Assembly: GCA_043228905.1 (NCBI GenBank)
Contig: JBHGNT010000012.1
Span: 6,944,001-7,008,000 of the forward strand
Direction: 5' to 3'
From: Azolla caroliniana
Lineage: Eukaryota; Plantae; Polypodiophyta
Length of the DNA stretch: 64,000 nt
Position numbers and translations under genes: made by a program. The notes under the pieces are model-generated. The model was not told where the DNA came from, made no database searches, and saw only the letters and a program-made list of their open reading frames with translations. Shown here one piece after another: positions 1 to 33,200 of the stretch (position 1 is the first letter of the stretch; each line of letters opens with the position of its first letter).

Positions 1-863
1 AGGGTCCGTCTAGTTGATTAAAATTAGATGTAGGGCATTTGGAAAATTGCAGAGTCCCTTTTTCACAAGCATCCAAGTTTCCAAGCTCGGTGTTGTGTGT
101 TTGACTATTGTCACCCATCAATTTTCTTTCACTCATAATTTTTCATCTCAAACTAGGATCCATAATTCACATTAAGACCCAAAAACCTTACTGGATTGAA
201 TCCACAAAGGTCCCAATGCCTTCCACGTTCATGAAATCAATCCACAATCATGCATTGAATCCATGATCATGGATTGAACCCATGCAAGGCATTCCTCAAA
301 TTTAAATTCTACGAACAGCCTTTCTTGGGAATTCCAAAAAGAGCATTTCCTAGGAAAATTCCATGAAGGAGGAAACGAACCCCATCTCCCCTTTGTTGCT
401 CGTCATTCGAGGAACAAAGAAAGGAAAAGAGACGAGGTCAACTGACGACTACTGTTGTTGCTCTTGCTATTACACAGTCTCCACCTCTATCATCGATTGA
501 TGTTAGCATCATCCTTACTATAGGTGAGATTCAATCCATCCCCTTTTTCTTCTCCACTTACACCTTTCCTCTTTTAGGACCCTTATCCACAAGCAAAAAG
601 AGAACACTATTTTCGTCACACCAACATACTTAAAACATTTATACATATGCTAAAGTGTGTGTACACTTTTACTTGTACACAACATATCACTCACTGGCAC
701 ACACACCTAGGTATATCATCAATGCCTATCAAGCACGTCCAAATGAAGTTAGGTGCATAACAATCGACGATTTCAAATGTCCCGAAGTCATGAACCTAAG
801 GCAATCTCCTCTTCCTTGGCTCAAGCCCCCGACGGTCCCGCTCACATTTCCCTTCACCATAAT

Positions 864-1258
864 TATTATAGATCTAAGTACTAATGTAAGCTTAAGATAA
901 GGATAAAGAAATGAAAGATAGAAAGGAGAAAGAGAAAGAAGGGTGCCAATCCACCCGACCACCCCCGAGCGAAGGGATCGAGACGGACTCGAGCCTCGAT
1001 CGGCGTCCCATACCACCACCGTGGCGTCGAGTCGTACCTGGTGCTGGTGCGCTCGCTACAAGAGTTGACCCACCACACGAGTAGAGTCTCAATGTAGTCA
1101 AAAGATCCTCAAATGAGGGTAGCTAGGCCTCTTATTTATAGCGATACCCAAGGCCCCCAGGCAAATTCACACTTGACCTAATGGGTTGTCTCAATCCCGA
1201 GGATTAAAAGTAATCCTCCCCTTCTTTACACTCTCGTTTAACCCTCACACTTATCCAC
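864..1258 (-). repeat. 3' LTR of element A, missing its first ~60 nt
   Basis: Matches 11775-12169, then runs directly into the end of the chromodomain ORF. Confidence 0.9.
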
Positions 1259-3767
1259 TCTTTAAAACATTGCACTCTTGCAATGGAAAGTTAGGGAAGT
1301 TAGTTCTAAGAGTATTTTCGCGTTCCCATGTGGCATCTTTTATTGATTTATCCATCCATTTTATTTTAAATTCTCGGATTTCTTTAGTACGTAATTTTTT
1401 TGTTTTAACATCGAGAATTCTTTCTGGTACATGTGGTTTAGAAGATAATTCTTCAGAAGTAACCAGAGTTTCAGTCGTAACTGTATTGTCGCCAGAACCT
1501 AGAAGTTCTTTTAGACGACTCACATGAAAGATTGGATGAATTCCGACACCATCGGGAAGAGCGAGACGATAGGCTGATGACCCAATGCGTTTGAGGACTG
1601 TAAAAGGTCCACAAAACCGTGGGGCTAACTTAGCGCACTTACCCGTAGACAATGTCTTAGAATTGTGAGGTACACGTAAAAATACCTTCTGTCCAGGGTT
1701 GAATACACGAGGTTGCCTATGATGATCGGCATAAAAACGCGCTCTATCTTGAGCTGTTTTTATATTATCTCGTGCAATATGCAACATATCTTGCATATCC
1801 CGAAGAAAGTTTTGCGTACTTCGCAACTCATCATGATATATATTAGCATCAATCGGGGCTCATGGCTGAAAACCATACATCAACATAAAAGGACTATATC
1901 CCGTCGATGTATGCTTGGAGCTGTTATAAGCAAACTCCAAAATTGGGAGATAACGTTCCCATTTTGTTGGTTTTGCACCAACGTATGCTCGAAGCATGTC
2001 CTCAATAATTTGATTTACTCCTTCTGTCTGTCCATCGGATTGAGGATGATCCGTGGAGCTCATGCTCAACGTAGTTTCTAACTTCTTAAAGACTTGTGTC
2101 CAGAAGTCACTAGTAAACTTTGGATCTCGATCACTCATGATATCCATCGGTAACCCATAAAAACGAAACAATTCGTCAACGAATTGGTAAGCCAATTCAG
2201 GAGCTGTTACCGTGGTTTTAGTAGCAATAAATCTGGCCATTTTAGTTAGTCGATCAACGACAACCCAGATGGCATCATGACCTTTTTGGGTGCGAGGAAG
2301 GCTAACAATAAAATCCATGGATATACTTTCCCACTTATTATTGGGAATGTCCAAGGGATGTAAAAGTCCTGCGGCTTTAAGTCGCTCGGCTTTGGTAACC
2401 TGACACTGGTGACATTTAGTCACATAGCTATGTATGTTAGGACGCATCTTAGGCCAATAAAATTGAGTGGAGATGAGAACGAGTGTACGATGTATTCCAG
2501 GGTGCCCTGTTGAGGGTGCATCATGGCATTCAAAAAGAATCCTCTTTTTGACCTCGGGTAAATCTGGAACACAAACCTTCCCATTACGGTAGAGCAAACC
2601 GTTAGCAATGTGGAAGTATTCCTTCGAGGATGTGGTGGTGTCTGTTCCAGACTCAACTCTTGCCCAGTATTTTGCGAAATAACTGTCATCAAGATACTTT
2701 CCTCGAAGGTGATCATAAAGATCTGATGATATTGCAGTGAAGCTAAGCATGTTAACTTCACAGATGCGACTTAGTGCATCAGCGACAGTGTTCATGGAAC
2801 CTTTACGATATCGTATGGAAAAATCAAAGTCCTGGATGAGATCAGCCCATCGTGCCTTACGACCTTTCAGGTCTTGTTGGTCACAAAAATATTTCAAGGA
2901 CTCGTGGTCTGTAGTTACCACAAAGTGATTTCCATAAAGATAATGGCGCCATGTTTTGAGCGCATGTATAACTGCAAATAATTCCTTTTCTTGAACGGTA
3001 TACCGACATTGAGCAGAATCAAGTTTCTTACTCTCGAATGCTATTGGTTTACCATCTTGATACAAAACAGCACCTATAGCATAATCGCTTGCATCGGTTT
3101 CAACCTCAAAAGGTTTTGAAGGATCGGGTAAAAGAAGTGAAGGAGCCTTGCAAACCAAGTCCTTGAGTTCCTTAAAGGCAAGGTCTAGTGTACCATTCCA
3201 CACAATAGGTTTTGTAGACTTACGCGTTTGACCTTTTAAAAGATCAGTAAACGGCGTCGTCAATTGGGAGTAATTACGAAAAGACTTTCGCAAAAACCCC
3301 ACAAAACCAAGGAATGATCGAACTTCTCGAATATTCCGAAGAGTGGGCCAAAGCTTCATTTTCTCAATGCGAGAAGGATCAATTTCAACTCCTCGTTTGG
3401 TTATGAGATGTCCTAGATAAGTAATTGATTTCTTGAAGAACTCACATTTTGAGATCTTCGCATAAAACTGTTTGTCACGCAATGTTTGTAAAACAAAGCG
3501 GACATGTCTAGCATGTTCTTGTAATGTACGGCTATAAACTAAAATATCACCCAAGAAAATAACGACAAATTTTCCAAGTTGTTCTTGGAAAATGTCATTC
3601 ATTTCTTGTTGAAAAGTAGCCGGAGCATTGATCAAACCAAAAGGCATAACCAAAAACTCGTAATGGCCATAGCACGTACGAAATGCCGTTTTAGGAACAT
3701 CGTCCTCACTTATTCGTATTTGGTGGTAACCAGTACGGAGATCAAGTTTCGTAAAATACTGAACTCC

Positions 3768-4166
3768 TGTCATGAACACATGACCATTATGGACTTGAAC
3801 CTCGAACCTTGTAATTCATACTTGAAAACCTCAACCATTAAGATAGCTTATTGTTATATGAAACAATAAAAGCTACTTCTTGTATTACATTGATTATTGT
3901 AAAAACTCTAGATTATTCTAGAATGTTCTAGAATGTCCTAGAGCATTCTAGGTCTAGAACATTCTAGAACATTCTAGAAATCTCTAAGCTATTCTATAGG
4001 ACCCTATGAATAAGCGCATACATGTATTCTCAAATCAATTCGAATCAACACCAGTCTTTAGCTCTCATTACATATCTTGTATCCATTCTCTTTCTTTCTC
4101 TATCTTATACATACATTCTTCTCTATCCTTCTTCCATCACTCTATCTTTTATCCTTGGTTCTGACA
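3768..4166 (+). repeat. B1 5' LTR (399 bp)
   Basis: TGTCATG...CTGACA. It lacks 10 bp (CGTCACCCGG) present in the 3' LTR. Confidence 0.93.
3916..3980 (+). promoter_or_regulatory. Heat-shock element (nGAAn/nTTCn) array in B LTR, upstream of TATA
   Basis: TTCtaGAAtgTTCtaGAA and GAAcaTTCtaGAAcaTTCtaGAA are alternating pentamers. Present in all four B LTRs (also ~8150-8215, ~20026-20090, ~30897-30961). Confidence 0.75.
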
Positions 4167-4175
4167 GTTTGATTC

Positions 4176-4180
<5 letters not shown>

Positions 4181-4247
<67 letters not shown>
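4181..4247. repeat. (CT)n microsatellite in leader of B1 (also 20325-20384 in B2)
   Basis: Pure CT run immediately after the PBS in both copies. Confidence 0.95.
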
Positions 4248-4251
<4 letters not shown>

Positions 4252-4276
4252 CCTCCTTTGTAACCATCCTGAAACC

Positions 4277-5440
4277 ATGCCTGCCATTAACTCAGAAGAA
4301 TATCTCACCCTTGTTGCAGAAATGGAGAACCTTAAATCCAAGTTCGCATCTCTTGAAGTAGAGAATCAACATCTACTTGGGGATCTATAAAAGGTTACTA
4401 TAGAGAAGCAACAACAACAAGAGGAGTTCACGCGACGAGTGCAACAGTTAGAGTTGACAATCGTCGTGTTACAACAACAAAGGGTTGAAGGTCAGGGACT
4501 TATCAAGGAGCCCAAAATTAGCCTCCCAGCTAAATTTGATGGGTCGAGGGCGCATTTCCGAGGTTTTTTGAATCAAGTACGGTTGGTGATTGAAATGCAT
4601 CCCGCACGTTATCCAACAGATGCATCCCGAGTTGAGCTAGTGGGCACTTTATTGACTGGCATAGCATTGTCGTGGTTTGCTCCATTGCTAGAGACCAACT
4701 CTCCTCTACTGAATAATTTCGAGGAATTTATCAAGGAATTTAACGCTTGTTTCGGAGATACTGATGGGGTGAGAACAACTATCAACAAGATTCGTACACT
4801 TCGTCAAGGTGATCAACCAGCTTCAACATATGCTGCCAATTTCCATCTCATCGCAAGCGATATTCCTTGGGATGAACAAGCCCTAATGGAGCAATTCCGT
4901 TCAGGCCTTCGTAGTGATGTCAAAGACTTACTTCTTACCTTCCCCGAGGATCCAAGGTCACTTACAGAAGCTATTAGTCGAGCAATACGGTGTGATAATC
5001 GCCTTTTTGAGCATCGATGTGAGCGACAACAACAAATAACAAGATCTAGATTCACACCAACTTATGCATCAGTAACGGCGCAATCATCCCCAAGGCAAAT
5101 GTATAGCCCTGCTCCAACTCCAAGGCAAACACGTAGTCCAGTCCCAATGGATAGTCCTGCACCCATGGAGATCGATATGACTCAACGACGAGGACCGTTG
5201 TCAAACGAAGAGAAGCAACGTCGTCGAGCAAACCATCTGTGCTTATATTGTGGAGGTCCAGGACATATAGCCATTCATTGCTCCCGTAGGCCGAGACGTC
5301 AGGTAAATCAAATTCACTATGACAATAAAAATGAGTCCAACATTTTAGAAGTAGTTAGTGAATCTAATATTATGAATAATCCACCCTTGTCCAATAAATT
5401 TGAAGTCCTAAGCCAATTAGAAGAGGAGTCAAACGAATAA
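4277..5440 (+). pseudogene. gag: B1 gag (premature TAA at 4388-4390)
   Basis: Near-identical to the intact B2 gag. LPAKFDG motif and CLYCGGPGHIAIHC knuckle. CAA>TAA nonsense change relative to B2. Confidence 0.88.
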
Positions 5441-5466
5441 GTCCGGCTAAAATAGGAGCCATTTGG

Positions 5467-7990
5467 TTGGACAACCCTAGATATGTACAACCTAGTGTGG
5501 GTTCCATTTCTTCCAAGCATGTTAGTAGTGTCTTCTCAGCCCTAGTACAAGTTAGGACACCCAGTTGTCAACTTCAAGTCCAAGCCCTCTTAGATACTGG
5601 AGCCAATTCTTGTTTCATGGATAGAGATTTTGCCCAAAAACATGGAAGTATGGTCTTTACGCCAAACTTGAGAAATGCAGTTTTGATTGCAAACAAGTCG
5701 AATTTTTGGGATACACTATTTCATCCCAGGGTGTTTTCATGGACCCGGCAAAAGTCCAAACAATATTGGAATGGAAACCCCCATGCTCAGTTCGGGATGT
5801 CCAGTGTTTCCTCGGATTTGCAAACTTCTATCGCAAATTCATACATAATTATTCAAGCATTGTGTTGCCCCTTACTCAACTCACCAAGAAAAATCAAGCA
5901 TTTTTTTGGAGTATCGAAGCGGACAAGGCTTTTACGCAGCTAAAAGAGGCATTCACATCAGCACTCATCCTAGCACATATTGATCCTAAAAAGCCATTTA
6001 CTATTGAGGCAGATGCATCAGACTTTGCATTGGGGAGTATCCTATCGCAACCAGGCGAGGACGGGCAGATACATCCAGTCGCGTTTCACTCGAGAAAGTT
6101 TACTGTTTCGGAGATAAACTATGAGGTGCATGACAAGGAGTTACTAGCTGAGGTCGACTCATTCGAGCAATGGCGTCATTTTCTAGAAGGATCACCTCAT
6201 CAGATTATCATTTATAGTGATCACAAAAATCTCACATATTTTCAAACAGCTCAAGTATTAAATAGACGACAAGCTCGGTGGGCCCAATTTCTAACGCGTT
6301 TCGATTTCAAGATCATTTTTCGCCCCGGAAAACAACAAGGGAAAGCAGATGCTCTGTCTCGGCGTTCGTATCTAGCACTTCGACCTGGAGATCCGGCCTT
6401 TGACAATCAAAAGCAAACTCTCCTCGGGCCATCAAAGCTACAGGTAACAACAATTTATGCCACACCACTTGATTCTACCCTTCTTGACACTATTCGGCAA
6501 AAACTTCATTCGGATGATTTTGCTAAGGATGTCTTAGCCCACTGTGGTTCAAGTCGTCCATCTTGCTCCACATTGCCAGGGTCATCTCAACATTATCAGG
6601 ATTTCAAGTGGCAAGATGGTTTACTCTTCTACAAGAATCTCCTTTACGTCCCCGACGGATCACCCTGACTTCAAGTGTTGGAACATTGTCATGATGCCCC
6701 CATGGCTGGACATTTTGGTATTTCCAAGACCATTGAGCTGGTGAAACGTTCGTTTTGGTGGCCTCACTTGCAAAAATTTGTCGAAGATTATGTTCGCACT
6801 TGTGACACCTGCTGTCGCGCCAAAATACCTCGGCATCACCCTTATGGCTTACTACAACCATTACCCCCTCCCAACAAGCCATGGCAGTCTATTTCTATGG
6901 ATTTCATTACGGATCTACCACCTTCCAAAGGCTTTGATACTATTTTAACAGTAGTGGATCAGTTCACCAAGATGGCACATTTTGTACCATGTGTAAAGAC
7001 CATCAATAGTGAAGAAACTGCAGATCTCATTATGCGTGAAGTGTTTCGCCATCATGGTCTCCCGAATGATATTATTAGCGATCGAGGTCCTCAATTTATC
7101 TCACACTTTTGGAAGCACCTATGGGTAGGCCTCAAAATCTCTTGCAAACTCTCTTCAGCTTATCATCCACAAACTGACGGACAAATAGAGCGCACAAATC
7201 AGACACTCGAGCAATATCTTCGATGTTTCATTAGTTATCAACAAGATGATTGGAGTAAAATTTTACATCTTGCCGAGTTTGCATACAACAACACGGTCCA
7301 CTCTTCTACCAAAGTTACACCTTTCTTTGCCTACACCGGCAACCACCCTCGATGGTGTATACTGGATCTTCCCGAGGTGTCACGAAACCCTAGTGCGGCG
7401 CATCACCTCCACCGACTACAACAAATCCAGTTCGAGTTATCGTCACATCTTCAGAAAGCGCAAGCACACCATAAGACCAATGCCGATCGACATCGTCTTA
7501 AGTCTCCATTTAAGGTTGGTGACCGTGTATGGTTGCTTTGTCGTCACATCAAGACTACCCGACCGTGTGCTAAGATTGACTATCAACGCTTAGGTCCTTT
7601 TGTCATCACGGCACAGATTAATGATGCAACATTTCGTCTTAACCTTCCTGCACATATGCGGCTTCACCCTGTCTTTCATAGCTCTCTTTTGGTACCTTGC
7701 CACACCTCTTTAATTCCTGATCGTGTCGTGCTACCACCGCCTTCTGTACAACTTGTGGACGGCCCCGAATACGAGGTAGCTGCTATTCTCGATTCTAAGA
7801 TTGTGCGCAATAAGCTTTTATTATCTAGTTGATTGGCTTGGTTATCCTCCGAGTGATCACACTTGGGAACCCATCGATAACGTTTGTAATGCTGAAGCTC
7901 TGGTCAACGACTTCCATCGTCACTATCCAAACAAGCCCGGCCCAACAATGTTAACGCCGACTTCCACTCGGCGTTCTCGAAGGAGGGATA
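5467..7990 (+). pseudogene. pol: B1 pol with ~1.1 kb deletion of PR/RT; RH, IN and chromodomain remain
   Basis: LLDTGANSCF protease jumps at ~5643 to the RT C-terminus (compared with B2). RH EADASDFALG, IN SDRGPQF/QTDGQ, plus stop codons and frameshifts. Confidence 0.88.
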
Positions 7991-7991
7991 G

Positions 7992-8400
7992 TGTCATGAA
8001 CACATGACCATTATGGCGTCACCCGGACTTGAACCTCGAACCTTGTAATTCATACTTGAAAACCTCAACCATTAAGATAGCTTATTGTTATATGAAACAA
8101 TAAAAGCTACTTCTTGTATTACATTGATTATTGTAAAAACTCTAGATTATTCTAGAATGTTCTAGAATGTCCTAGAGCATTCTAGGTCTAGAACATTCTA
8201 GAACATTCTAGAAATCTCTAAGCTATTCTATGGGACCCTATAAATAAGCGCATACATGTATTCTCAAATCAATTTGAATCAACACCAGTCTTTAGCTCTC
8301 ATTACATATCTTGTATCCATTCTCTTTCTTTCTCTATCTTATACATACATTCTTCTCTATCCTTCTTCCATCACTCTATCTTTTATCCTTGGTTCTGACA
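7992..8400 (+). repeat. B1 3' LTR (409 bp)
   Basis: Follows the PPT; direct repeat of 3768-4166. Confidence 0.93.
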
Positions 8401-16932: not shown

Positions 16933-16995
<63 letters not shown>

Positions 16996-19755: not shown

Positions 19756-20319
19756 TACCACATTCATTCTAGCATGAGATGCATGCAACCCATGGTAAAA
19801 CTTATGTGAATAACAGTTGCGATCATGTGCTTCATTTTTCATACTCTCTCTCTCATGAACCACATAGTGTCATGAACACATGACCATTATGGCATCACCT
19901 GGACTTGAACCTCGAACCTTGTAATCCATACTTGAAAACCTCAACCATTAAGATAGCTTATTGTTATATAAAACAATAAAAGCTACTTCTTGTATTACAT
20001 TCATTATTGTAAAACCTCTAGATTATTCTAGAATGTTCTAGAATGTCCTAGAGCATTCTAGGTCTAGAACATTCTAGAACATTCTAGAAATCTCTAAGCT
20101 ATTCTATAGGAACCTATAAATAAGGGCATACATGTATTCTCAAATCAATTCGAATCAACACCAGTCTTTAGCTCTCATTACATATCTTGTATCCATCTCT
20201 TTCTTTCTCTATCTTATACATCCATTCTTCTCTTAGTATTTCGTTCCTTTCTTCTCGTGTTCTCTAATATCCATCTTCCATCACTCTATCTTTTATCCTT
20301 GGTTCTGACAGTTTGATTC

Positions 20320-20387
<68 letters not shown>

Positions 20388-20412
20388 CCTCCTTTGTAAC
20401 CATCCTGAAACC

Positions 20413-21576
20413 ATGGCTGCCATTAACTCAGAAGAATATCTCACCCTTGTTGCAGAAATGGAGAACCTTAAATCCAAGTTTGCATCTCTTGATGTAGAGA
20501 ATCAACGTCTACTTGGGGATCTACAAAAGGTTACTATAGAGAAGCAACAACAACAAGAGGAGTTCACGCGACGAGTGCAACAGTTAGAGTCGACAATCGT
20601 AGTGTTACAACAACAAAGGGTTGAAGGTCAGGGACTTATCAAGGAGCCCAAAATTAGCCTCCCAGCTAAATTTGATGGGTCGAGGGCGCATTTCCGAGGC
20701 TTCTTGAATCAAGTATGGTTGGTGATTCAAATGCATCCCGCACGTTATCCAACAGATGCATCACGAGTCGGGCTAGTGGGCACCTTATTGACTGGCATAA
20801 CGTTGTCGTGGTTTGCTCCATTGCTAGAGACCAATTCTCCTCTACTGAATAATTTCGAGGAATTTATCAAGGAATTTAAGGCTTGTTTCGGAGATACTAA
20901 TGGGGCGAGAACAACTATCAACAAGATTTGTACACTTCGTCAAGGTGATCAACCAGCTTCGACATATGCTGCCAATTTCCCTCTCATCGCAAGCAATATT
21001 CCTTGGGATGAACAAGCCCTAATGGAGCAATTCCGTTTAGGCCTTCGTAGTGATGTCAAAGACTTACTTCTTACCTTCCCCGAGGATCCAAGGTCAGTTA
21101 CAAAAGCTATTAGTCGAGCAATACGGTGTGATAATCGCCTTTTTGAGCATCGATGTGAGCGACAACAACAAATAACAAGATCAAGATTCACACCAACTTA
21201 TGCATCAGTAACGGCGCAATCATCCCCAAGGCAAATGTATAGCCCTGCTCCAACTCCAAGGCAAACACGTAGTCCAGTCCCAATGGATAGTCCTGCACCC
21301 ATGGAGATCAATATGACTCAACGACGAGGACCGTTGTCAAACGAAGAGAAGCAACGTTGTCGAGCAAACCATATATGCTTATATTGCGGAGGTCCAAGAC
21401 ATATAGCCATTCATTGCTCCCGTAGGCCGAGACGTCAGGTAAATCAAATTCATTATGACAATAAAAATGAGTCCAACATTTTAGAAGCAGTTAGTGAATC
21501 TAATATTATGAATAATCCACCCTTGTCCAATAAATTTGAAGTCCTAAGCCAATTAGAAGAGGAGTCAAACGAATAA
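20413..21576 (+). CDS. gag: B2 Gag (387 aa)
   Basis: ATG-initiated ORF with coiled-coil N-terminus, LPAKFDG capsid and a zinc-knuckle remnant. Confidence 0.9.
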   Translation: MAAINSEEYLTLVAEMENLKSKFASLDVENQRLLGDLQKVTIEKQQQQEEFTRRVQQLESTIVVLQQQRVEGQGLIKEPKISLPAKFDGSRAHFRGFLNQVWLVIQMHPARYPTDASRVGLVGTLLTGITLSWFAPLLETNSPLLNNFEEFIKEFKACFGDTNGARTTINKICTLRQGDQPASTYAANFPLIASNIPWDEQALMEQFRLGLRSDVKDLLLTFPEDPRSVTKAISRAIRCDNRLFEHRCERQQQITRSRFTPTYASVTAQSSPRQMYSPAPTPRQTRSPVPMDSPAPMEINMTQRRGPLSNEEKQRCRANHICLYCGGPRHIAIHCSRRPRRQVNQIHYDNKNESNILEAVSESNIMNNPPLSNKFEVLSQLEEESNE

Positions 21577-22529
21577 GTCCGACCAAAATAGGAGCCATTT
21601 GGTTGGACAACCCTAGATATGTACAACCTAGTGCGGGTTCCATTTCTTCCAAGCATGTTAGTAGAGTCTTCTCAGCCCTAGTACAAGTTAGGACACCCAG
21701 TTGTCAACTTCAAGTCCAAGCCCTCTTCGATACTAGAGCCAATTCTTGTTTCATGGATAGAGATTTTGCCCAAAAACACCAAATATTCTTGCATACACTT
21801 CCTTGTCTAGTTTCCGTAGTAGTGATTGATGGACGCCCCATAGCTTCCGGGAAGATATTTGAAGAGTCTGAACCAATACACATACTCTTGGGTGATTTAG
21901 GATGTGTAGTTTCCTTTAACATAATCTGTAGTCCTGAGCATCCAATTGTCCTCGGTTTGCCCTGGTTCGAGCTACATAACCCTAGAATCGATTGGAGGAA
22001 GCGAGAAATTAGGTGCCCTTTAGCAGAAAATATCATTGTCAAGAATCGAACTCGAGATTATCCTCCTAAAGTATATAGTTCTACCGATGCACCATATCCT
22101 TCTCATCAAATTTCAGCTATCACATTGCAACAATTGTACCAAGTGGGAGGCAAGAAGGACCTTTTCTTATTTGCAATATCAGTGACACCTTCTAATGTCA
22201 CTCAAGGGAATTCAGACATCCAAATTCCCAAAAAATATCAAGACTATGTTGATGTTTTCGACAAAGTCAATGCTAGTGTTCTTCCAAAGCATCAGTCGTA
22301 CGACTGTCCTATTGATCTCCAACCAGGAAAAGAGCCACCATGGGGTACGATTTACAATTTATCACCCACTGAGCTTGAGGTTCTTCGAGAATACATCGAG
22401 GAAAATCTTGCACATGGGTTTATTCGACATGTTGGGATTTCGGTCCCTCCGGATGGGATGTCCGGAGATGAATGACGGCAAGCCCGGTTGCGATTACGGA
22501 ACCGGATGATGAATAGTACCCGGCATGAA

Positions 22530-22676
22530 GCCGGATGAAGAGACCCCGGTTACGGAGCCGGATGACGAAGACCCGGTTACGGAGCCGGATGATGAAGACC
22601 CCGGCTACGGAGCCGGATGACGAAGACCCGGCTACGGAGCCGGATGATGAAGACCCGGCTACGGAGCCGGATGATG
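22530..22676 (+). repeat. ~27-bp tandem repeats in copia C U3 (also ~27353-27499)
   Basis: About 5 copies of GATGAAGACCCGGCTACGGAGCCGGAT-like units. Confidence 0.88.
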
Positions 22677-23198
22677 TATGTACCCGGAGAGAGATCCGGA
22701 TGCGGGGACATATTTGTGAATATGTTTGCCAAGAGCCCTTGAGGCTATATTTGTAAATAGCCCGAAAGTCATATGTGTATAAATATGACTTAGGGCAAAC
22801 AGTTTATTGTTGTTGCTCATTTTATGTTCTAGCCGAGAGAGCGAAGTGAGAGCAGCCTAGAGAGAGAGAGAAAGGAAGAGGTCGACGCCTCTGTGTATTG
22901 CCGCCGCCTGTGGCGAAGACAGTGAGCTCAAGGTTGTTGCCTTGTAGCTTCACCATTGTACATCTCTGTGTATAGTGTGAGTTGGAGTTTGAGGACTCAC
23001 GTGGTTTTTCCCATTTAGGGTTTTCCACGTAAAACATACTGTGTACCCTTCTCTCTATTGCCTTGGAGCATTTTGTATTTCCTGTTTTCTGTGATTTGAT
23101 CCTATTTCTCGGTTGTGGCCGAGTGCTGTTTTCAACAAAGTGGTATCAGAGCGACGGTAACACAGAAAACGAAAGGCGGCGGTAGTGGGCCTCCGGGC

Positions 23199-26100
23199 AT
23201 GATGGTGTTGAACTCACAGAACTACGCCGACTGGAAGATAAAGATGGAAGACCTTCTCATCGTCCGAGACCTGTACGAACCGATCGACAATGCCGAGATA
23301 CCCAAGGGGGTAATAGAGTCGGAGTGGAAGCTCCTGAACCGGAAAGCCGTAGCGACGATCCGGCAATATGTCGATGTAAGTGTCCTGCAACATGTGGCGA
23401 ACGATACGAACGCCTATGAGATGTGGCGGAAGCTGTCCGGACTGTATGAGAGGAAGAATGCTCTGACCCGGACCTCCCTGATGAGGAAGATAGTGAATCT
23501 TAAGTACCGGGACGGCGAGAGCATGGTCGAACACGTAAGCACGTTCATGGGATTCGTGAACCAGCTTGCGGCGATCAAGTTCCCGTTGGAGGATGCAATG
23601 CAAGCCATCATTCTGATGTGTACATTGCCGGAAAGCTGGGAGAACTTGGTGGTGACTCTCAGCACCTCCTGCACCGAAGATAACTTGTCCCTACAAACGG
23701 TAAAGACAAGTATTTTGAACGAAGAAGCGCGTCGGAGAGATAAAGAACCGGCCTCCGACTCGAAGGCGCTGCTTACCGAATCGGAACGGGGAAGACAACG
23801 GAACCGGAGTCCGCAAAGACGGGAGAAGTCGGGGACCCGGTCGCAGTCAAGAGGAAGACCCACATGCTTCCACTGTGGGAAGCCGGGGCACTTCCGGAAG
23901 AATTGTCGGTATTACCGAAAGGACAACGGAGCCGACGACACCGATTCGAAGAAGTCACCGGAGAGAAACGGTGCATACCGGGGAGCCACGGACCGGAGAG
24001 GTCCGGATCGGCGAGGGCAGGACCGGAAAGGAACGACGGCACTCGCGGCAAGTGAAGAGGAGATCATGCTCATTACCAAAGAGAGGGAGCTGAACCTTGC
24101 CGGAGAAGAGATGACCTGGGTGGTCGATTCCGGAGCGTCGTTCCACCTGACCCCGGAGAAGAAATACTTCTCATCCTACACAGCCGGTGAGCATGGTTGT
24201 GTCCGGATGGGAAATGAAGGTACATGCCGGATTGCCGGCATAGGAGACGTGTGGTTAACAACCTCGACCGGATGCAAAATACTGCTGAAGGATGTCCGAC
24301 ACGTTCCGGAGGTTCGATTGAACCTGATTTCGGCCGGGAGGCTAGATGATGAAGGCTACACAGGTAGCATCCGGAACGGCGTAATGAAGTTCAGCAAGGG
24401 GAGTCTGATAGTGGCTCGGGCCCGGAAAGTTAACACGTTGTACCTGATGAATGCCTGGTTATGTCCGGAAGAGCTGAACGTGGCAGCCGACACTGCCGGT
24501 GAGCTGTGGCACAAGAGACTGTGCCACATGAGTGAGAAGGGGATGAAGAGGCTTGCAGATGACAACCTCATTCCAGTGAAGAATGTGCACCTGGAGAAGT
24601 GCACCGATTGCCTGGCCGGTAAGCAGAACCGAACCTCCTTCCACTCAAGGCCACCGACGAGACGTAGCGCACCGTTGGAGTTGGTGCACTCTGATGTGTG
24701 TCAGGTAGAAACGAAGTCACATGGCGGAGCCCAGTACTTCGTAACATTCATAGATGACCACAGCCGGAAGCTGTGGACGGCACCGTTGAAGACAAAGGAC
24801 CAAGTGTTGTCCGTCTTCAAAGAACTCCACGCGAGAGTGGAAAGGGAATCCGGCAAGAAGCTGAAAGCGATACGAGCGGATAACGGAGGGGAATACCGGG
24901 GGCAGTTCGCGGAGTACTGTCGCTCGAAGGGAATCCGGCTCGAGTTTACTGTGCCGAAGACGCCGGAACTGAACGGGCTGGCCGAGAGGATGAACCGGAC
25001 TATAATGGAGAGGGTCCGGAGTATGCTGGCGCATGCGAAATTACCCAAGGGGTTTTGGGCTGAGGCAATGTCGACGGCGACATACGTGATAAACAGATCG
25101 CCCTCAGTACCTTTGGACGGAGACACGCCGCAGAAAGTGTGGACCGGTAAGGAAGTGTCCTACCGGCATCTGAAGGTGTTCGGGTGTCTCGCTTACGTGC
25201 ATGTGGCTAAGGACCGGAGAGGAAAGCTAGATCCAAAGACCCGGTCATGCATATTCCTCGGTTACGGCGACGACGAGTTCGGCTACCGAGTATGGGACCC
25301 GGTCGACAAGAAGATATTCAGGAGTCGAGACATCATCTTCATGGAGGACAAGACACTCGCCGACTTGGAGTCGGAGAAGAAGATGAAGAGCTCCAAGTCG
25401 ACCGGTGAGGATCAACTCTACGAGGAGCAGTCCCGACCGGCAAGGGACCGGTTATCACTCGAGGATCCGGCCGAAGACGGTGAAGAAACAGAACCGGCCG
25501 AAGAAGATGAAAATGATACCGGAACCGGCCACGATCCCGAAATGGATTCGGATGAAGAAGAATCGGAAGAACCGGTTACCGAAGCTCCGGAACGGAGATA
25601 TCCTCTAAGAGAGAGAAGGGCCCCCCGGAGATTTCCGGAACCAGAGCACGTGCTGCTAACCGACGAGGGGGAGCCGGAGAGCTTTGAAGAAGCAAAGCAT
25701 GACACCCAGAGCCGCAGGTGGTTGAGTGCCATGCAGGACGAGATGGATTCCCTGCATGAGAACCACACATATGAACTTGTGGAGCTGCCGAAAGGAAAAC
25801 GGGCACTCCGTAACAAGTGGGTGTTCAAGCTGAAACCGGGAGATGCCGGAAACCCCCCGAGATACAAAGCCAGGATCGTGGTGAAGGGGTTTCAGCAGAA
25901 GAAGGGCGTCGACTTCGACGAGATATTTGCCCCGGTAGTGAAGATGACCTCCATCCGGACGGTGCTGAGCATAGCGGCAAGCATGGACCTCGAGGTAGAA
26001 CAGATGGACGTGAAGACGGCATTCCTTCACGGTGACCTAGAAGAAGAGATCTACATGCAGCAACCGGAAGGATTCGAGAAGAAAGGGAAGGAGCACCTGG

Positions 26101-27242
26101 TATGCCGGTTGAAGAAGAGCCTTTACGGACTGAAGCAGGCTCCCCGGCAGTGGTACAGGAAGTTCGACTCCTTCATGACCGACGAAGGGTACCACAAAAC
26201 GCAGTCTGATCACTGCGTGTTTGTGAAGAAGTTCGAAGGAGGAGACTTTCTAATACTCCTCCTGTACGTGGACGACATGTTGATCGTCGGACGGGACCAG
26301 GTCAAGATACGGATGCTGAAGAAGGCTCTTCACCGAACCTTCTCAATGAAGGACCTGGGTCCGGCGAGGCAAATACTAGGGATGCACATCATCCGGGACC
26401 GGAAGAAGAAGCAGTTGTGGTTGTCACAGGAGAAGTACGTGACAAAGGTGCTTCACCGGTTCAACATGTCGGAAGCAAGACCGGTGGGGTCAACACTCCC
26501 GGCAAATTGCAAGCTGTCCAGCAAGCAAAGCCCCAAGACAAAGGCTGAGAAGGAGGACATGATGAAAGTACCATATGCCTCTGCCGTCGGGAGCTTGATG
26601 TACGCGATGGTGTGTACCCGACCGGACATAGGATATGCAGTCGGAGTGGTGAGCCGGTACATGAGCAATCCTGGCAAAGAGCATTGGAACGCGGTCAAAT
26701 GGATACTCCGATACTTGAAGGGCACGGCAAACATGTGCCTCCGATTCGGCTCCGGTAAGCCCGAACTCGATGGATTTACCGATTCGGATATGTCGGCTGA
26801 TGCAGATACCAGCCGGTCCACATCAGGGTATGTGATGACGTATGCAGGGGGAGCTATTTCATGGCAGTCGAGGCTGCAGAAGACGGTTGCACTGTCAACC
26901 ACGGAGGCGGAGTACATGGCGGCTGTTGAAGCCGGCAAGGAAATAATATGGATGAAGGACTTCATTAGAGAGCTCGGTATCCGGCAGGAGGAGTACCGAC
27001 TCTACTGCGACAGTCAGAGTGCCATCCACCTTGCGAAGAACGCGGCCTACCATTCCCGGACGAAGCACATCCAACGAAGATATCACTGGATCCGGGAAAG
27101 GATAGAAGACCAGGAGTTCGTGTTGACGAAGATCCACACGGACGAGAACGGGTCAGATATGCTGACCAAAGTGCTCACACCCGACAAGCTAGAAGCATGC
27201 CGGAAGAGGATCGGATTGGAGAGACATCCCATGCCGAAGTGA
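23199..27242 (+). CDS. Copia C Gag-Pol polyprotein (uninterrupted; possible ACG start at 23169)
   Basis: Knuckle CFHCGKPGHFRKNC, PR WVVDSGASFH, WHKRLCH, IN DNGGEY/PELNGLAER, RT YVDD, RH TDSD..TEAEY..CDSQSA. Confidence 0.95.
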   Translation: MMVLNSQNYADWKIKMEDLLIVRDLYEPIDNAEIPKGVIESEWKLLNRKAVATIRQYVDVSVLQHVANDTNAYEMWRKLSGLYERKNALTRTSLMRKIVNLKYRDGESMVEHVSTFMGFVNQLAAIKFPLEDAMQAIILMCTLPESWENLVVTLSTSCTEDNLSLQTVKTSILNEEARRRDKEPASDSKALLTESERGRQRNRSPQRREKSGTRSQSRGRPTCFHCGKPGHFRKNCRYYRKDNGADDTDSKKSPERNGAYRGATDRRGPDRRGQDRKGTTALAASEEEIMLITKERELNLAGEEMTWVVDSGASFHLTPEKKYFSSYTAGEHGCVRMGNEGTCRIAGIGDVWLTTSTGCKILLKDVRHVPEVRLNLISAGRLDDEGYTGSIRNGVMKFSKGSLIVARARKVNTLYLMNAWLCPEELNVAADTAGELWHKRLCHMSEKGMKRLADDNLIPVKNVHLEKCTDCLAGKQNRTSFHSRPPTRRSAPLELVHSDVCQVETKSHGGAQYFVTFIDDHSRKLWTAPLKTKDQVLSVFKELHARVERESGKKLKAIRADNGGEYRGQFAEYCRSKGIRLEFTVPKTPELNGLAERMNRTIMERVRSMLAHAKLPKGFWAEAMSTATYVINRSPSVPLDGDTPQKVWTGKEVSYRHLKVFGCLAYVHVAKDRRGKLDPKTRSCIFLGYGDDEFGYRVWDPVDKKIFRSRDIIFMEDKTLADLESEKKMKSSKSTGEDQLYEEQSRPARDRLSLEDPAEDGEETEPAEEDENDTGTGHDPEMDSDEEESEEPVTEAPERRYPLRERRAPRRFPEPEHVLLTDEGEPESFEEAKHDTQSRRWLSAMQDEMDSLHENHTYELVELPKGKRALRNKWVFKLKPGDAGNPPRYKARIVVKGFQQKKGVDFDEIFAPVVKMTSIRTVLSIAASMDLEVEQMDVKTAFLHGDLEEEIYMQQPEGFEKKGKEHLVCRLKKSLYGLKQAPRQWYRKFDSFMTDEGYHKTQSDHCVFVKKFEGGDFLILLLYVDDMLIVGRDQVKIRMLKKALHRTFSMKDLGPARQILGMHIIRDRKKKQLWLSQEKYVTKVLHRFNMSEARPVGSTLPANCKLSSKQSPKTKAEKEDMMKVPYASAVGSLMYAMVCTRPDIGYAVGVVSRYMSNPGKEHWNAVKWILRYLKGTANMCLRFGSGKPELDGFTDSDMSADADTSRSTSGYVMTYAGGAISWQSRLQKTVALSTTEAEYMAAVEAGKEIIWMKDFIRELGIRQEEYRLYCDSQSAIHLAKNAAYHSRTKHIQRRYHWIRERIEDQEFVLTKIHTDENGSDMLTKVLTPDKLEACRKRIGLERHPMPK

Positions 27243-30200
27243 AGGGGGAGTTTGTTGGGATTTCGGTCCCTCCGGATGGGATGTCCGGAGATGAATGACG
27301 GCAAGCCCGGTTGCGATTACGGAACCGGATGATGAATAGTACCCGGCATGAAGCCGGATGAAGAGACCCCGGTTACGGAGCCGGATGACGAAGACCCGGT
27401 TACGGAGCCGGATGATGAAGACCCCGGCTACGGAGCCGGATGACGAAGACCCGGCTACGGAGCCGGATGATGAAGACCCGGCTACGGAGCCGGATGATGT
27501 ATGTACCCGGAGAGAGATCCGGATGCGGGGACATATTTGTGAATATGTTTGCCAAGAGCCCTTGAGGCTATATTTGTAAATAGCCCGAAAGTCATATGTG
27601 TATAAATATGACTTAGGGCAAACAGTTTATTGTTGTTGCTCATTTTATGTTCTAGCCGAGAGAGCGAAGTGAGAGCAGCCTAGAGAGAGAGAGAAAGGAA
27701 GAGGTCGACGCCTCTGTGTATTGCCGCCGCCTGTGGCGAAGACAGTGAGCTCAAGGTTGTTGCCTTGTAGCTTCACCATTGTACATCTCTGTGTATAGTG
27801 TGAGTTGGAGTTTGAGGACTCACGTGGTTTTTCCCATTTAGGGTTTTCCACGTAAAACATACTGTGTACCCTTCTCTCTATTGCCTTGGAGCATTTTGTA
27901 TTTCCTGTTTTCTGTGATTTGATCCTATTTCTCGGTTGTGGCCGAGTGCTGTTTTCAACACGACATTCAAAGTCTCCAGCTGGTGCTCCTATCTTTTTTG
28001 TGAAGAAAAAGGACAGCTCCATTCGTTTGGTCGTGGACTATCGAGGCTTAAATAAAGTCACTATAAGGAATAGGTATGCTTTACCTTTAATCTCCAATCT
28101 CTTAGAACGCATGGGTGGGGCAAAGCATTTTACCAAAATTGATCTAAGGGGTGCATATAATCTTGTTCGAATTCGGTCGAGAGATGAGTGGAAAATAGCA
28201 TTTCGTACTCGGTATGGTCATTTCGAGTATACAGTCATGCCTTTCGGGCTCACAAATGCACTTGCAGTATTCCAACATATGGCAAATGACATCTTCCGGG
28301 ATTTCTTGGATATTTTTCTAATATTCGACCTAGATGATCTATTGATTTACTCTAAAACACAGGGGGAGCATGATATACGTGTGCGGCAAGTACATGAATG
28401 CCTAAGGAAGTATGGTCTTTATGCCAAACTTGAGAAATGCAGTTTTGATTGCAAACAAGTCGAATTTTTGGGATACACTATTTCATCCCAGGGTGTTTTC
28501 ATGGACTCGGCAAAAGTCTAAACAATATTGGAATGGAAACCCCCATGCTCAGTTCGGGATGTCCAGTGTTTCCTCGGATTTGCAAACTTCTATCACAAAT
28601 TCATACATAATTATTCAAGCATTGTGTTGCCCCTTACTCAACTCACTAAGAAAAATCAAGCATTTTTTTGGAGTATCGAAGCGGACAAGGCTTTTACGCA
28701 ACTGAAAGAGGCATTCACATCAGCACCCATCCTAACACATATTGATCCTGAAAAGCCATTTACTATTGAGGCAGATGCATCGAACTTTGCATTGGGGAGT
28801 ATCCTATCGCAACCAGGCGAGGACGGGCAGACACATCCAGTCGCGTTTCACTCGAGAAAATTTACTGTTTCGGAGATAAACTATGAGGTGCATGACAAGG
28901 AGTTACTAGCTGTGGTCGACTCATTCGAACAATGGCATCATTTTCTAGAAGGATCACCTCATCAGATTATCATTTATAGTGATCACAAAAATCTCACATA
29001 TTTTCAAACAGCTCGAGTATTAAATAGACACCAACTCGGTGGGCCCAATTTCTAACGCGTTTCGATTTCAAGATCATTTTTCGCCCCGGAAAACAACAAG
29101 GGAAAGCAGATGCTTTGTCTCGGCGTTCGTATCTAGCACTTCAACCTGGAGATCCGGCCTTTGACAATCAAAAGCAAACTCTCCTCGGGCCATCAAAACT
29201 ACAGGTAACAACAATTTATGTCACGCCACTTGATTCTACCCTTCTTGACACTATTCGGCAACAACTTCATTCAGATGATTTCGCTAAGGATGTCTTAGCC
29301 CACTGTGGTTCAAGTTGTCCATCTTGCTCCACATTGTCAGGGTCATCTCAACATTATCAGGACTTCAAGTGGCAAGATGGCTTACTCTTCTACAAGAATC
29401 TCCTTTACGTCCCCGACTGCAAGTGTTGGAAATGTCATGATGCCCCCATGGCTGGACATTTTGGTATTTCCAAGACCATTGAGCTAGTGAAACATTCGTT
29501 TTGGTGGCCTCAATTGCAAAAATTTGTCGAAGATTATGTTCACACTTGTGACACTTGTTGTCGCGCCAAAATACCTCGACATCACCCTTATGGCTTACTA
29601 CAACCATTACCCCCTCCCAACAAGCCATGGCAGTCTATTTCTATGGATTTCATTACGGATCTACCACCTTCCAAAGGCTTTGATACTATTTTAACAGTAG
29701 TGGATCGGTTCACCAAGATGGCACATTTTGTACCATGTGTAAAGACCATCAATAGTGAAGAAACTGCATATCTCATTATGCGTGAAGTGTTTCGCCATCA
29801 TGGTCTCCCGAATGATATTATTAGCGATCAAGGTCCTTAATTTATCTCACACTTTTGGAAGCACCTATGGGCAGGTCTCAAAATCTCTTGCAAACTCTCT
29901 TCGGCTTATCATCCACAAACTGACAGACAAACAGAGCGCACAAATCAAACGCTCGAGCAATATCTTCGATGTTTCATTAGTTATCAACAAGATGATTGTC
30001 CAGTAATATTTTACATCTTGCCGAGTTTGCATACAACAACACGGTTCACTCTTCTACCAAAGTTACACTTTTCTTTGCCTACACTGGCAACCACCCTCGA
30101 TGGTGTATACTGGATCTTCCCGAGGTGTCACGAAACCCTAGTGCGGCGCATCACCTCCACCGACTACAACAAATCCAGTTCGAGTTATCGTCACATCTTT

Positions 30201-33200
30201 AGAAAGCGCAAGCACACCATAAGACCAATGCCGATCGACATCATCTTAAGTCTCCGTTTAAGGTTGGTGACCGTGTATGGTTGCTTCGTCGTCACATCAA
30301 GACTACCCGACCATGTGCTAAGCTTGACTATCAACGCTTAGGTCCTTTTGTCATCATGGCGCAGATTAATGATGCAACATTTCGTCTTAACCTTCCTGCA
30401 CATATGAAGCTTCACCCTGTCTTTCATAGCTCTCTTTTGGAACCTTGCCGCACCTCTTTAATTCCTAATCGTGTCGTGCCACCACTGCCTTCTGTACAAC
30501 TTGTGGACGGCCCCGAATACGAGGTAGCTGCTATTCTCGATTCTAAGATTGTGTGCAATAAGCTTTATTATCTAGTTGATTGGCTTGGCTATCCTCCGAG
30601 TGATCGCACTTGGGAACCCATTGATAACGTTTGTAATGCTGAAGCTCTGGTCAACGACTTCCATCGTCACTATCCAAACAAGCCCGGCCCAACAATGTTA
30701 ACGCCTACTTCCACTCGGCGTTCTCAAAGGAGGGATAGTGTCATGAACACATGACCATTATGGCATCACCTGGACTTGAACCTCGAACCTTGTAATCCAT
30801 ACTTGAAAACCTCAACCATTAAGATAGCTTATTGTTATATGAAACAATAAAAACTACTTCTTGTATTACATTCATTATTGTAAAACCTCTAGATTATTCT
30901 AGAATGTTCTAGAATGTCCTAGAGCATTCTAGGTCTAGAACATTCTAGAACATTCTAGAAATCTCTAAGCTATTCTATAGGAACCTATAAATAAGGGCAT
31001 ACATGTATTCTCAAATCAATTCGAATCAACACCAGTCTTTAGCTCTCATTACATATCTTGTATCCATCTCTTTCTTTCTCTATCTTATACATCCATTCTT
31101 CTCTTAGTATTTCATTCCTTTCTTCTCGTGTTCTCTAATATCCTTCTTCCATCACTCTATCTTTTATCCTTGGTTCTGACACATAGGATTGCAAGCCGAT
31201 CACATCATATATGCTTGAGAGTGCCTAGCCCCCTTTCTCACTCTAATCTTCAACCTCGCCCTTGCCGAGGGTTTTCAACCACAATGGACCATGAACACAG
31301 TGGCCCCTATACATAAAGGAGGGGACCCAATGGACCCAAATACATATAGGACCATTATGATAGGTCATGCACTCACTAAACTATATGGTGCAGTACTGGA
31401 AGTGGAGCTCAGGGATTATATGGAAACATTAAGTCTTCGAGCACATGAGCAACCTGACTTTAGACAAGCCTTCTCCACTATTGACCATATCTTCACACTT
31501 AGATGCTTAATTGACCAGACGAAGGCTCGTAAGAAGAAAATATATTGTTGCTTTGTGGACTTCTGTAAAGCCTTTGACACAAGTCCTTGGGAGAGGTTGT
31601 TTGATAGACTTAAGAGCTTGGAGATACCAAATGACATGATCTGGGCCATTTATGCCCTATATGAGCAAGTCTTCGAGCGCGTAAGATGCCCAGGCGGTCT
31701 ATCCGATTGTTTCACTAGCACCATTGGTGTAAAACAGGGTTGCCCCCTATCACCGACTCTTTTTGGGATCTACATTGATGAGATCACTAGTTTTATTGCT
31801 CATAAGGGAGGCAAGGGAGTATCTATTGGGGATACGCAAGTTAGTCTCTAACTCTACGCAGACGACATTGTCTTGCTCTCGAAGTTGGAACACGACCTAC
31901 AAAAGCATCTTAATGCCCTAGATGACTTTTGTACACAACAAGGACTGGTAGTGAATCTAGCGAAAACTAAAGTCCTTATCTTTCATACATCATCCCGAGT
32001 TAGGAGTAAATGTCACCTAATCCTCTCTCATAAACTAGTTGAGGTAGTTGGATCATATGTATACTTGGGGGTCACCTTAGTGCTCGCTTAGGTAAATTCT
32101 CGATGACCCAGGCAGCCAAAGATAGGCTAACAAGAGGGTATGCATCCCTCTCACTCTTAGAGAGACAATGCCACCAAGCATACTTTCAAGAGCCACGGAC
32201 TAAGGGATGGCACTAAGGGATGGCTCTTCGACTCATTAGTGACCCCTTCCCTCATATATGCATCAGTAGTATGGGCTCCAAGTCTACCATCTTTCATGTG
32301 GACGCAATTAGAGAGACCTTTGGTGACGGTGTTATCATGTCAACTCCGAAGCAAATCGACAGTACCACATGACATTATTAGAGCAAAGTTCAGTCTGCCC
32401 CCAATGTTAGTAGAAGCACTTTTTCAAGTGGTAGTTTTTATTCATCGAATACACAGCCAACCACAAGATAGGATATCCCGCCGAGCCTTTGAGGCATCCC
32501 GATCCCTACATGCATTTGGAGACACTAGCTCTTGGTATAGCACTTTGGTCAATTGGTTACTTGCAAATAGCATAGAAATTAATAACGTACCTCCCTTTAA
32601 GTACAACCATGGGACTGATCAAACTCTAATATCTCATGAAGACCGTAATAAAGTGATACGCCAAGAAATATGGCAAATTTACACTCGACATAAATGGATC
32701 ACCCCACTAGAGCCGCTCCATCTAAAATGTTGTACTATAAGGAACACTTCTTGCACTTCTCTAATTTAGGTTTTATTACACGACCAATATATGTAGATAC
32801 ATTCTTATCAAATGCACTAAGGGTGGCCATTGGACAACTTAGGATATCATCTCACCAACTTGAGATTGAGAATGGTCGGGCTAATAGAGTCCCTAGAGAG
32901 GAAAGGCTATGTAGGTTATGCCACATAGAGATAGAGGATGAGTATCACTTCACATGCAAATGCCCAACTTATGCCGAGATACAAGCGAAATACCAAGACA
33001 TATTAGGACCCTCTCCCACCCTCTCCAAACTATTAGATACCCCGGATGAAAAGAGACTAGGTAGGTATATCTTAGAGGTAAAACAACATAGCGAGAATAA
33101 ATTACAAAGTGTTAACCATAACCATTTTACTATTCATCAACATGTAACTAGTGTAATTTTTCAGGAACAAGGAGAGACAATGAATGTGGATACACTTACG

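What the first reader, a model, noticed from the sequence alone, without database searches (positions are those of the whole stretch)
4037..4180. Gypsy family B appears to self-prime reverse transcription (no tRNA primer)
Seen: after the 5' LTR there is no TGG-tRNA PBS. Instead GT-TTGATTCGAATT (4169-4180; 20313-20324 in B2) is the exact reverse complement of AATTCGAATCAA inside the LTR (4037-4048; 20147-20158). That 12-mer starts 32 nt after the start of TATAAAT (20115), where the transcript 5' end is expected. Known: fission-yeast Tf1 primes with the first ~11 nt of its own mRNA, released by RNase H. Inference: this is a plant Tf1/Tcn1-like chromovirus using the same mechanism, whereas every other full-length LTR element here has a tRNA-iMet-type PBS.
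Basis: partly seen in the sequence, partly recalled or inferred. Interest (0 to 1): 0.85.

Follow-up and report, generated by a model that had tools for sequence, protein, structure and literature searches.

The report
Self-priming Tcn1 retrotransposon in a fern
This jumping gene, in what is likely a fern genome, has no tRNA primer site; the 12 bases after its left repeat pair exactly with 12 bases at the predicted start of its own RNA, and relatives change both sides together, so it likely primes its own copying as yeast Tf1 does, a mechanism already predicted for this lineage (Tcn1) in mosses and spikemosses.

Summary
Both copies (B1 3768-8400, B2 19868-31181) have no TGG primer site. After LTR end + GT comes TTGATTCGAATT, the exact complement of AATTCGAATCAA in the LTR (1 of 20,000 shuffles), 32 nt behind the TATA box (intact in B2, mutated in B1's 5' LTR). 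In all 5 clade relatives that hold the junction the pairing is kept; 8 of 11 arm pairs change on both sides, so the T-loop likeness is incidental. The family is Tcn1: RT about 74% identical to the published SM-Tcn1 (hand count), same LTR/PBS layout, chromodomain, overlapping gag/pol, 5-bp TSD. Self-priming was already predicted for 83% of 1,500 plant Tcn1 elements (Neumann 2019), so this is a new member of a known kind. Small additions: a likely fern host (the papers read give only mosses and Selaginella); SM-Tcn1, reported as lacking any primer site, has a 15/15 self-complement; the clade shows no PBS-downstream duplex of Tf1's 'pretzel'. Transcript start and cleavage are untested; both copies are broken. 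The scan had noted self-priming candidates in copia/BEL elements elsewhere, none on look-alike DNA.

The parts
3768..4166 (+). B1 5' LTR (399 bp, TGTCA...TGACA); left TSD copy ACTCC at 3763-3767
4005..4011 (+). B1 TATA box position, mutated to TATGAAT (TATAAAT in the other three LTRs)
4037..4048 (+). B1 predicted self-primer (first 12 nt of R), followed by the clade-conserved CACCAG
4167..4180 (+). B1 GT spacer (4167-4168) and primer-binding site (4169-4180), complement of 4037-4048
4180..4247 (+). (TC)n run abutting the B1 PBS (68 nt)
4277..5440 (+). B1 gag, broken by a stop at 4388-4390
5404..7970 (+). B1 pol remains: protease, RNase H, integrase, SH3, frame-broken chromodomain; about 1.1 kb holding most of RT is deleted at 5642/5644 (end coordinate approximate)
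7979..7991 (+). B1 polypurine tract
7992..8400 (+). B1 3' LTR (409 bp; 396 of 399 aligned bases equal to the 5' LTR); right TSD copy GCTCC at 8401-8405
19868..20310 (+). B2 5' LTR (443 bp); TSD CATAG on both sides of B2
20115..20122 (+). B2 TATA box (TATAAATA), 32 nt before the arm
20147..20158 (+). B2 predicted self-primer; C/A at -1/+1
20311..20324 (+). B2 GT spacer and primer-binding site (20313-20324), followed by a 60-nt (TC)n run
20413..21576 (+). B2 gag (open, 387 aa), overlapping pol in another frame
21540..30754 (+). B2 pol (protease, RT, RNase H, integrase, SH3, chromodomain), split by a copia insertion at 22430-27960 and broken by stops and frame breaks
30726..30738 (+). B2 polypurine tract
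30739..31181 (+). B2 3' LTR (439 of 443 bases equal to the 5' LTR)

Best explanation
Family B is a Tcn1-lineage chromodomain Ty3/Gypsy retrotransposon, in a likely fern host, whose primer site pairs with its own LTR instead of a tRNA, and it likely primes reverse transcription with the first 11-12 bases of its own RNA. Shown: the pairing, its position and its co-variation. Inferred steps: (1) transcription starts at the first A of the arm (4037 / 20147), about 32 nt behind TATA; (2) the 5' end folds back on the PBS 120-154 nt downstream as a 12-bp duplex, extended by a short R-U5 helix; (3) the element's own RT/RNase H cuts at the duplex end, as shown for Tf1, leaving a short RNA with a free 3' end; (4) RT extends it across GT and U5-R to make minus-strand strong-stop DNA, the GT giving the two extra bases beyond the CA end. 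Both copies in the window are broken and could move only with proteins supplied by intact copies.
For: Exact 12/12 complement in both copies, 1 of 20,000 shuffles; forms in the fold with mean pair probability 0.93 (z -2.75 and -2.42). Of 7 loci in B's 14-row clade, 5 hold the LTR/PBS junction and all 5 pair with their own arm: L001 12/12, L002 12/12, L004 11/11, L083 11/11, L005 8 WC + 2 GU of 11 with its 5' LTR and 10 of 11 with its 3' LTR arm (read); the other 2 hold only a 3' LTR, with an arm + CACCAG behind TATA. On 7 aligned rows 98.2% of 112 cells pair, 9 of 16 pairs change on both sides (8 of the 11 arm pairs), 0 of 500 shuffles reach this, slid controls pair 24-47%. All 15 elements tabulated have pyrimidine/A at -1/+1 and 14 of 15 a TATA-like box 30-37 nt upstream. 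Published SM-Tcn1, with LTR ends set by its authors, shows a 15/15 complement in the same place, differing from B at two arm positions, both compensated (read by hand). In two DNA runs no variant at 5% or more was listed at 20146-20168 while 20135-20137, 20145 and 20169 vary. Tf1 mechanism and Tcn1 prediction: PMC7175516, PMC6317226 passages.
Against: No transcript start, primer or cDNA was observed. The host tRNA set was not available (no tRNA in the window). Tf1 is reported to need three duplexes; the PBS-downstream duplex is not found in B's clade (0 of 7 at p<0.05) and the upstream one is short and not above shuffles. Several relatives were found by a scan that asked for self-complementarity or also for TATA, so the tabulated set is selected; L006, a more distant relative with a visible LTR, showed no such pairing. 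The structure counted was derived from the same sequences. PBS conservation among genomic copies was not tested: places near the ends of the laid stretch seem not to be listed (omits variants that one search shows there).
Confidence: 0.9

Rival explanations
1. The PBS is primed by a host tRNA fragment through the T-loop-like core TTCGAATC, and the LTR arm is a by-product or decoy.
For: The complement of the PBS holds TTCGAATC, 8 nt of the tRNA T-loop consensus (consensus recalled). The host's tRNAs could not be searched.
Against: The primer's 3' end would have to read AA where the T-loop consensus goes on CC. L002, L004, L005 and L083 have lost the core yet pair with their own LTR, as does SM-Tcn1. 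Half-tRNA priming was found only in copia lineages in PMC6317226.
Confidence: 0.02
2. The primer has the same sequence but comes in trans, from the 5' end of a second copy of the RNA (or a short LTR transcript), not from a fold-back in cis.
For: Sequence and co-variation cannot tell cis from trans. The clade lacks the PBS-downstream duplex that Tf1's fold-back has.
Against: The cis duplex forms with probability about 0.93 in the predicted fold and the U5 end extends it with one compensated pair. Tf1-type fold-back is the described route.
Confidence: 0.05
3. The pairing is a conserved leader structure for translation, packaging or dimerisation, and priming uses something else.
For: No priming product was observed here.
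Against: The 3' arm sits exactly where a PBS must be, 2 nt after the CA end, in every case; no other primer site is present; the layout matches Tf1/Tj1.
Confidence: 0.03

Closest known systems
Plant Tcn1 chromoviruses (SM-Tcn1 of Selaginella moellendorffii, PpatensLTRs; REXdb lineage chromovirus|Tcn1)
   Same: RT 137 of 186 residues identical to SM-Tcn1 (hand count); same TATA - arm - CACCAGTC ... GACA|GT|PBS layout; arm differs at 2 of 12 positions; overlapping gag/pol, chromodomain, 5-bp TSD, 5.8 kb, pyrimidine-rich leader; self-priming predicted for 83% of 1,500 Tcn1 elements.
   Different: Host is likely a fern; the two papers give the clade in plants only for mosses and Selaginella/club-mosses. 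A (TC)30-34 run abuts the PBS.
Tf1/Tf2 of Schizosaccharomyces pombe, Tj1, Tosmo, sushi (Tf1/sushi group)
   Same: No tRNA site; PBS complementary to the predicted first 11-12 nt of the RNA; same broad clade (B groups with vertebrate and fungal proteins, 100/99).
   Different: Tf1's mechanism is shown by experiment, this one is not. Tf1 is described with a three-duplex 'pretzel'; B's clade shows the central duplex and a short R-U5 extension only. Tf1 itself was not run as a control.
tRNA-Met-primed plant chromoviruses (Galadriel, Tekay, Reina, CRM), e.g. element A in this window
   Same: Ty3/Gypsy domain order and a chromodomain.
   Different: They carry a TGGTATCA-type PBS; a clade of B with element A and four seed-plant proteins is rejected (p-AU 1.4e-5).

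Membership tests
Tcn1 chromovirus | RT/RNase H groups with the Tf1/sushi elements, not with seed-plant chromoviruses | tested here: met
   44-row tree, B in a 32-row clade (100/99) with amphibian, fish and ascomycete proteins; seed-plant rows and element A outside; AU p 1.4e-5 (group chosen after seeing the tree; outgroup not a clean side; no row named Tcn1 or Tf1 in the tree)
Tcn1 chromovirus | Close to a named Tcn1 element | tested here: met
   RT 74% identical to SM-Tcn1 by hand count, against 46-55% for the listed seed-plant hits and 48-64% for listed vertebrate hits; same junction motifs
Tcn1 chromovirus | C-terminal chromodomain with aromatic-cage residues | tested here: met
   PF00385 E 3.3e-13 in B2; Y, W and Y at the cage-type positions read (positions recalled)
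Tcn1 chromovirus | Gag and PR-RT-RH-INT in overlapping frames; 5-bp TSD; 5.5-9.4 kb | tested here: met
   ORFs 20317-21576 and 21540-22475 overlap; TSD CATAG/CATAG and ACTCC/GCTCC; 5,778 bp without the copia insert; lineage values
Tcn1 chromovirus | No tRNA PBS; 10 nt or more starting 0-5 nt after the 5' LTR complementary to the LTR (the criterion of PMC6317226) | tested here: met
   12 nt, offset 2; criterion read
Tf1-type self-priming mechanism | The complementary arm is the 5' end of the genomic RNA | tested here: inconclusive
   Position fits (TATA -32, C/A at -1/+1) but only contigs were served, which cannot show a start
Tf1-type self-priming mechanism | Primer:PBS pairing kept by compensatory change | tested here: met
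   8 of 11 arm pairs change on both sides over 7 rows; SM-Tcn1 adds two
Tf1-type self-priming mechanism | Three-duplex 'pretzel': both PBS-adjacent stretches also pair with the LTR | tested here: not met
   PBS-downstream duplex 0 of 7 in B's clade at 15, 25 and 40 nt, against 5 of 7 in a sister clade at 15 nt; upstream duplex not above shuffles in any of 15 elements, so that half of the test is weak; no Tf1 control
Tf1-type self-priming mechanism | RNase H-dependent cut at the duplex end and extension by RT | not testable with these tools
   needs biochemistry
tRNA-primed LTR retrotransposon | TGG-starting PBS 0-5 nt after the LTR | tested here: not met
   first 8 nt are GTTTGATT in both copies

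The most novel reading that the evidence does not exclude
Land-plant Tcn1 elements, now reaching into ferns, self-prime from a stripped-down structure: one 11-12 bp primer:PBS duplex plus a fixed AACACCAG / ACAGTTT junction, without the PBS-downstream duplex that Tf1 needs (in B a TC microsatellite occupies that place). The invariant junction would then be the recognition site for the cut, a variant of the Tf1 mechanism.
Probability: 0.4. Interest if true: 0.5.

Novelty: new member of a known kind. Interest (0 to 1): 0.3.

Why it matters
Self-priming has been shown by experiment for yeast Tf1 and only predicted for plant Tcn1. This family adds compensatory-change evidence for the prediction, corrects the reading of SM-Tcn1 as having no primer site, and likely extends Tcn1 to ferns, which bears on the proposed fungus-to-plant transfer of the lineage. 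The short invariant junction and the missing third duplex give a small, testable RNA substrate for asking what RT/RNase H needs in order to cut out its own primer. It does not open a new mechanism.

Tried and rejected
No whole genome is held for the window, so family copies and host tRNAs could not be searched; no tRNA gene in the window. Sequencing runs: no RNA holder listed; of two runs guessed to be RNA, one laid 2 contigs on U5 and the other none; contigs cannot show a start, so nothing on expression or the transcript start. Laying contigs does not test PBS conservation, because the PBS lay within 16 nt of the end of the stretch. The viral collection gave 3 distant loci. The protein atlas gave only generic RT clusters and the structure search only Ty3 and retroviral RTs, so no named Tf1 or Tcn1 sequence could be put in the tree. 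The (TC)n run at 16935-16995 is not a third family-B junction. T-loop priming, chance, and membership in tRNA-primed plant chromoviruses were considered and rejected. The test for a PBS-upstream duplex did not rise above shuffles in any element, so it is uninformative. Additional files 1 and 3 of PMC6317226 (element list, protein FASTA) and five .doc supplements of PMC2864245 could not be read; they may list self-primer sequences or fern elements.

Full report
Observation. The window holds two copies of one Gypsy family. B1 spans 3768-8400 (LTRs 3768-4166 and 7992-8400; TSD ACTCC/GCTCC) and B2 spans 19868-31181 (LTRs 19868-20310 and 30739-31181; TSD CATAG/CATAG). Each 5' LTR ends TGACA and is followed by GT and TTGATTCGAATT, the exact reverse complement of AATTCGAATCAA at 4037-4048 and 20147-20158. 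No TGG lies in the first 8 nt after either LTR. One of 20,000 dinucleotide shuffles of the B2 LTR gave a complement of 12 nt or more. In B2 the arm starts 32 nt after TATAAATA; in B1's 5' LTR the box is mutated to TATGAAT, and B1's 3' LTR arm has one C>T change. The four other LTR elements with a visible 5' junction have TGGTA(T/C)CAGA.

What the element is. Pfam finds gag, protease, RT, RNase H, integrase, a Tf2-like SH3 domain and a chromodomain, in Gypsy order. Gag overlaps pol in another frame. Without its copia insert B2 is 5,778 bp. Both copies are broken: B1 has a stop in gag and lacks about 1.1 kb with most of RT; B2 has a copia element inside RT, a stop and an altered catalytic motif. 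In a 44-row RT/RNase H tree B2 falls in a 32-row clade (100/99) with amphibian, fish and ascomycete proteins; four seed-plant proteins and the window's element A lie outside, and holding B's clade with them is rejected (p-AU 1.4e-5; the group was chosen after the tree was seen, and the outgroup is not clean). No row is named Tcn1 or Tf1. The link to Tcn1 by name comes from the SM-Tcn1 record in the supplement of PMC2864245 (whole file read): 137 of 186 RT residues are identical to B2 by hand count (74%), and the LTR has the same TATA - arm - CACCAGTC ... GACA|GT|PBS layout. The lineage table of PMC6317226 (supplement read) gives Tcn1 a 5-bp TSD, 5.5-9.4 kb, overlapping gag/pol, a chromodomain and self-priming in 83% of 1,500 elements; B fits each.

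Host. A two-exon LOB-domain gene lies at about 14279-14467 and 15894-16301. For exon 2 the best named hits are Ceratopteris and two Adiantum species, apart from one Chenopodium protein that ranks higher but covers 41% at 73% identity. For exon 1 the same three fern proteins lead, by a small margin over flowering plants (100-103 against 99 bits). The host is likely a fern. A Ceratopteris protein carries a gag 44% and an RT piece 76% identical to B2, so the lineage is probably in other ferns too. Contigs from runs under four organism labels hold the LTR.

Co-variation. A scan of metagenome contigs kept 79 loci of 577 matches, from 3 of 64 parts of the collection; genome and viral collections added 76 and 3. 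Seven loci fall in B's 14-row clade. Five hold the LTR/PBS junction and all five pair with their own arm: L001 (same 12-mer), L002 (12/12, four changes), L004 (11/11, six changes), L083 (11/11, five changes), L005 (8 WC + 2 GU of 11; 10 of 11 with its 3' LTR arm). L003 and L008 hold only a 3' LTR, with an arm and CACCAG behind TATA. On seven aligned rows 98.2% of 112 cells pair, 9 of 16 pairs change on both sides (8 of 11 in the arm), no shuffle of 500 reaches this and slid structures pair 24-47%; the structure was taken from these sequences and they are related, so the controls lean my way. SM-Tcn1 is the cleanest case, since its LTR ends were fixed by its authors: the 15 nt starting two bases after the LTR are complementary to LTR positions 392-406, and its two differences from B's arm are both mirrored (hand reading). 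The authors had reported no evidence of tRNA priming or self-priming (section 6 read). A more distant sister clade shows the same geometry with other sequences (L009, L010, L012, L019, L025, L040, L049). All 15 tabulated elements have pyrimidine/A at -1/+1, and 14 of 15 a TATA-like box 30-37 nt upstream; the set is selected, because asked for complementarity and one search also for TATA. L006, a more distant relative, showed no such pairing. In two DNA runs no variant at 5% or more was listed in 20146-20168, while neighbouring places vary; the PBS lay too near the end of the stretch to be judged.

Mechanism. [quoted passage not shown] By the same route B would start at 4037/20147, fold back (pair probability 0.93; z -2.75 and -2.42), be cut at the duplex end and be extended across GT into U5. 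That plant starts lie about 30 nt behind TATA at a pyrimidine/purine step, and that two extra bases at each cDNA end are trimmed by integrase, is recalled, not tested. None of these steps was observed: only contigs were served and no RNA holder was listed. The T-loop rival fails because the core TTCGAATC is lost in four relatives and in SM-Tcn1 while self-pairing stays; the host's tRNAs could not be searched.

One difference from Tf1. Tf1 is described as needing three duplexes, the 'pretzel' (passages of the S. osmophilus paper). The stretch downstream of the PBS finds no partner in the loop in B's clade (0 of 7 at p<0.05 for 15, 25 and 40 nt; in B it is a TC run of 60-68 nt), whereas 5 of 7 sister-clade elements have one at 15 nt (-13 to -17 kcal/mol, p 0.03 or less); L101 has none. 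The upstream side gives only a short R-U5 extension with one compensated pair and is not above shuffles in any element. Tf1 was not available as a control, so this is a lead.

Novelty. Self-priming in plant Tcn1 is in print as a prediction (passages of PMC6317226). [quoted passage not shown] Searches for Tcn1 with fern terms and for 'pretzel' found no report of fern Tcn1 or of a reduced structure; PMC8282616, PMC3350952 and PMC13469084 (passages; one supplement searched) add nothing on it. The library lacks most subscription papers, and two REXdb files could not be read, so fern Tcn1 may well be recorded. Earlier notes of this scan concern copia, BEL and other elements, none on look-alike DNA; they did not change my reading.

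Verdict.

Noticed in passing
window 3909-3986, 8143-8220, 20019-20096, 30890-30967: U3 of every family-B LTR carries a palindromic array of alternating TTC/GAA units two bases apart, just upstream of TATA. This matches the heat-shock element consensus (recalled). Similar arrays are seen in L001, L003 and L083 but not L002, so the family may be heat-inducible.
   Followed up: partly
SM-Tcn1 record, supplement S3 of PMC2864245, positions 392-406 and 499-513: The published Selaginella element, described as having no primer site, has a 15/15 LTR/PBS complement in the Tf1-type position.
   Followed up: yes
window 856-12169 (minus): Element A, a chromodomain Gypsy with a tRNA-Met-type PBS and a 1.7-kb leader, LTRs 97.8% alike; B1 is nested in its pol in the opposite direction. 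Lineage not resolved.
   Followed up: partly
window 22430-27960: Copia element inside B2's RT with 100% identical 708-bp blast-matched LTRs, TSD CGACA and an open 1,380-codon frame: a very recent insertion.
   Followed up: no
window 14279-14467 and 15894-16301: Two-exon LOB-domain (LBD/AS2) transcription factor gene, closest named relatives in ferns.
   Followed up: partly
L017:2419-2435, also L032, L045, L046, L048, L052, L056, L060, L069: A distant Gypsy clade has CT + 8 nt after the LTR complementary to a site about 88-91 nt before the LTR end, extendable past a bulge; much closer to the LTR end than in the other clades and no TATA box was picked up.
   Followed up: no
L083-L158: Many bacterial and archaeal genome bins hold contigs of eukaryotic Gypsy elements, e.g. 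a Tcn1-type element in a cyanobacterial bin (L083); likely binning contamination.
   Followed up: no
window 17400-19867 (minus) and 31219-33434: RT-bearing remnants flank B2 on both sides, in opposite directions; the right one gave no hit to B's RT. Likely LINE-type; not classified.
   Followed up: no
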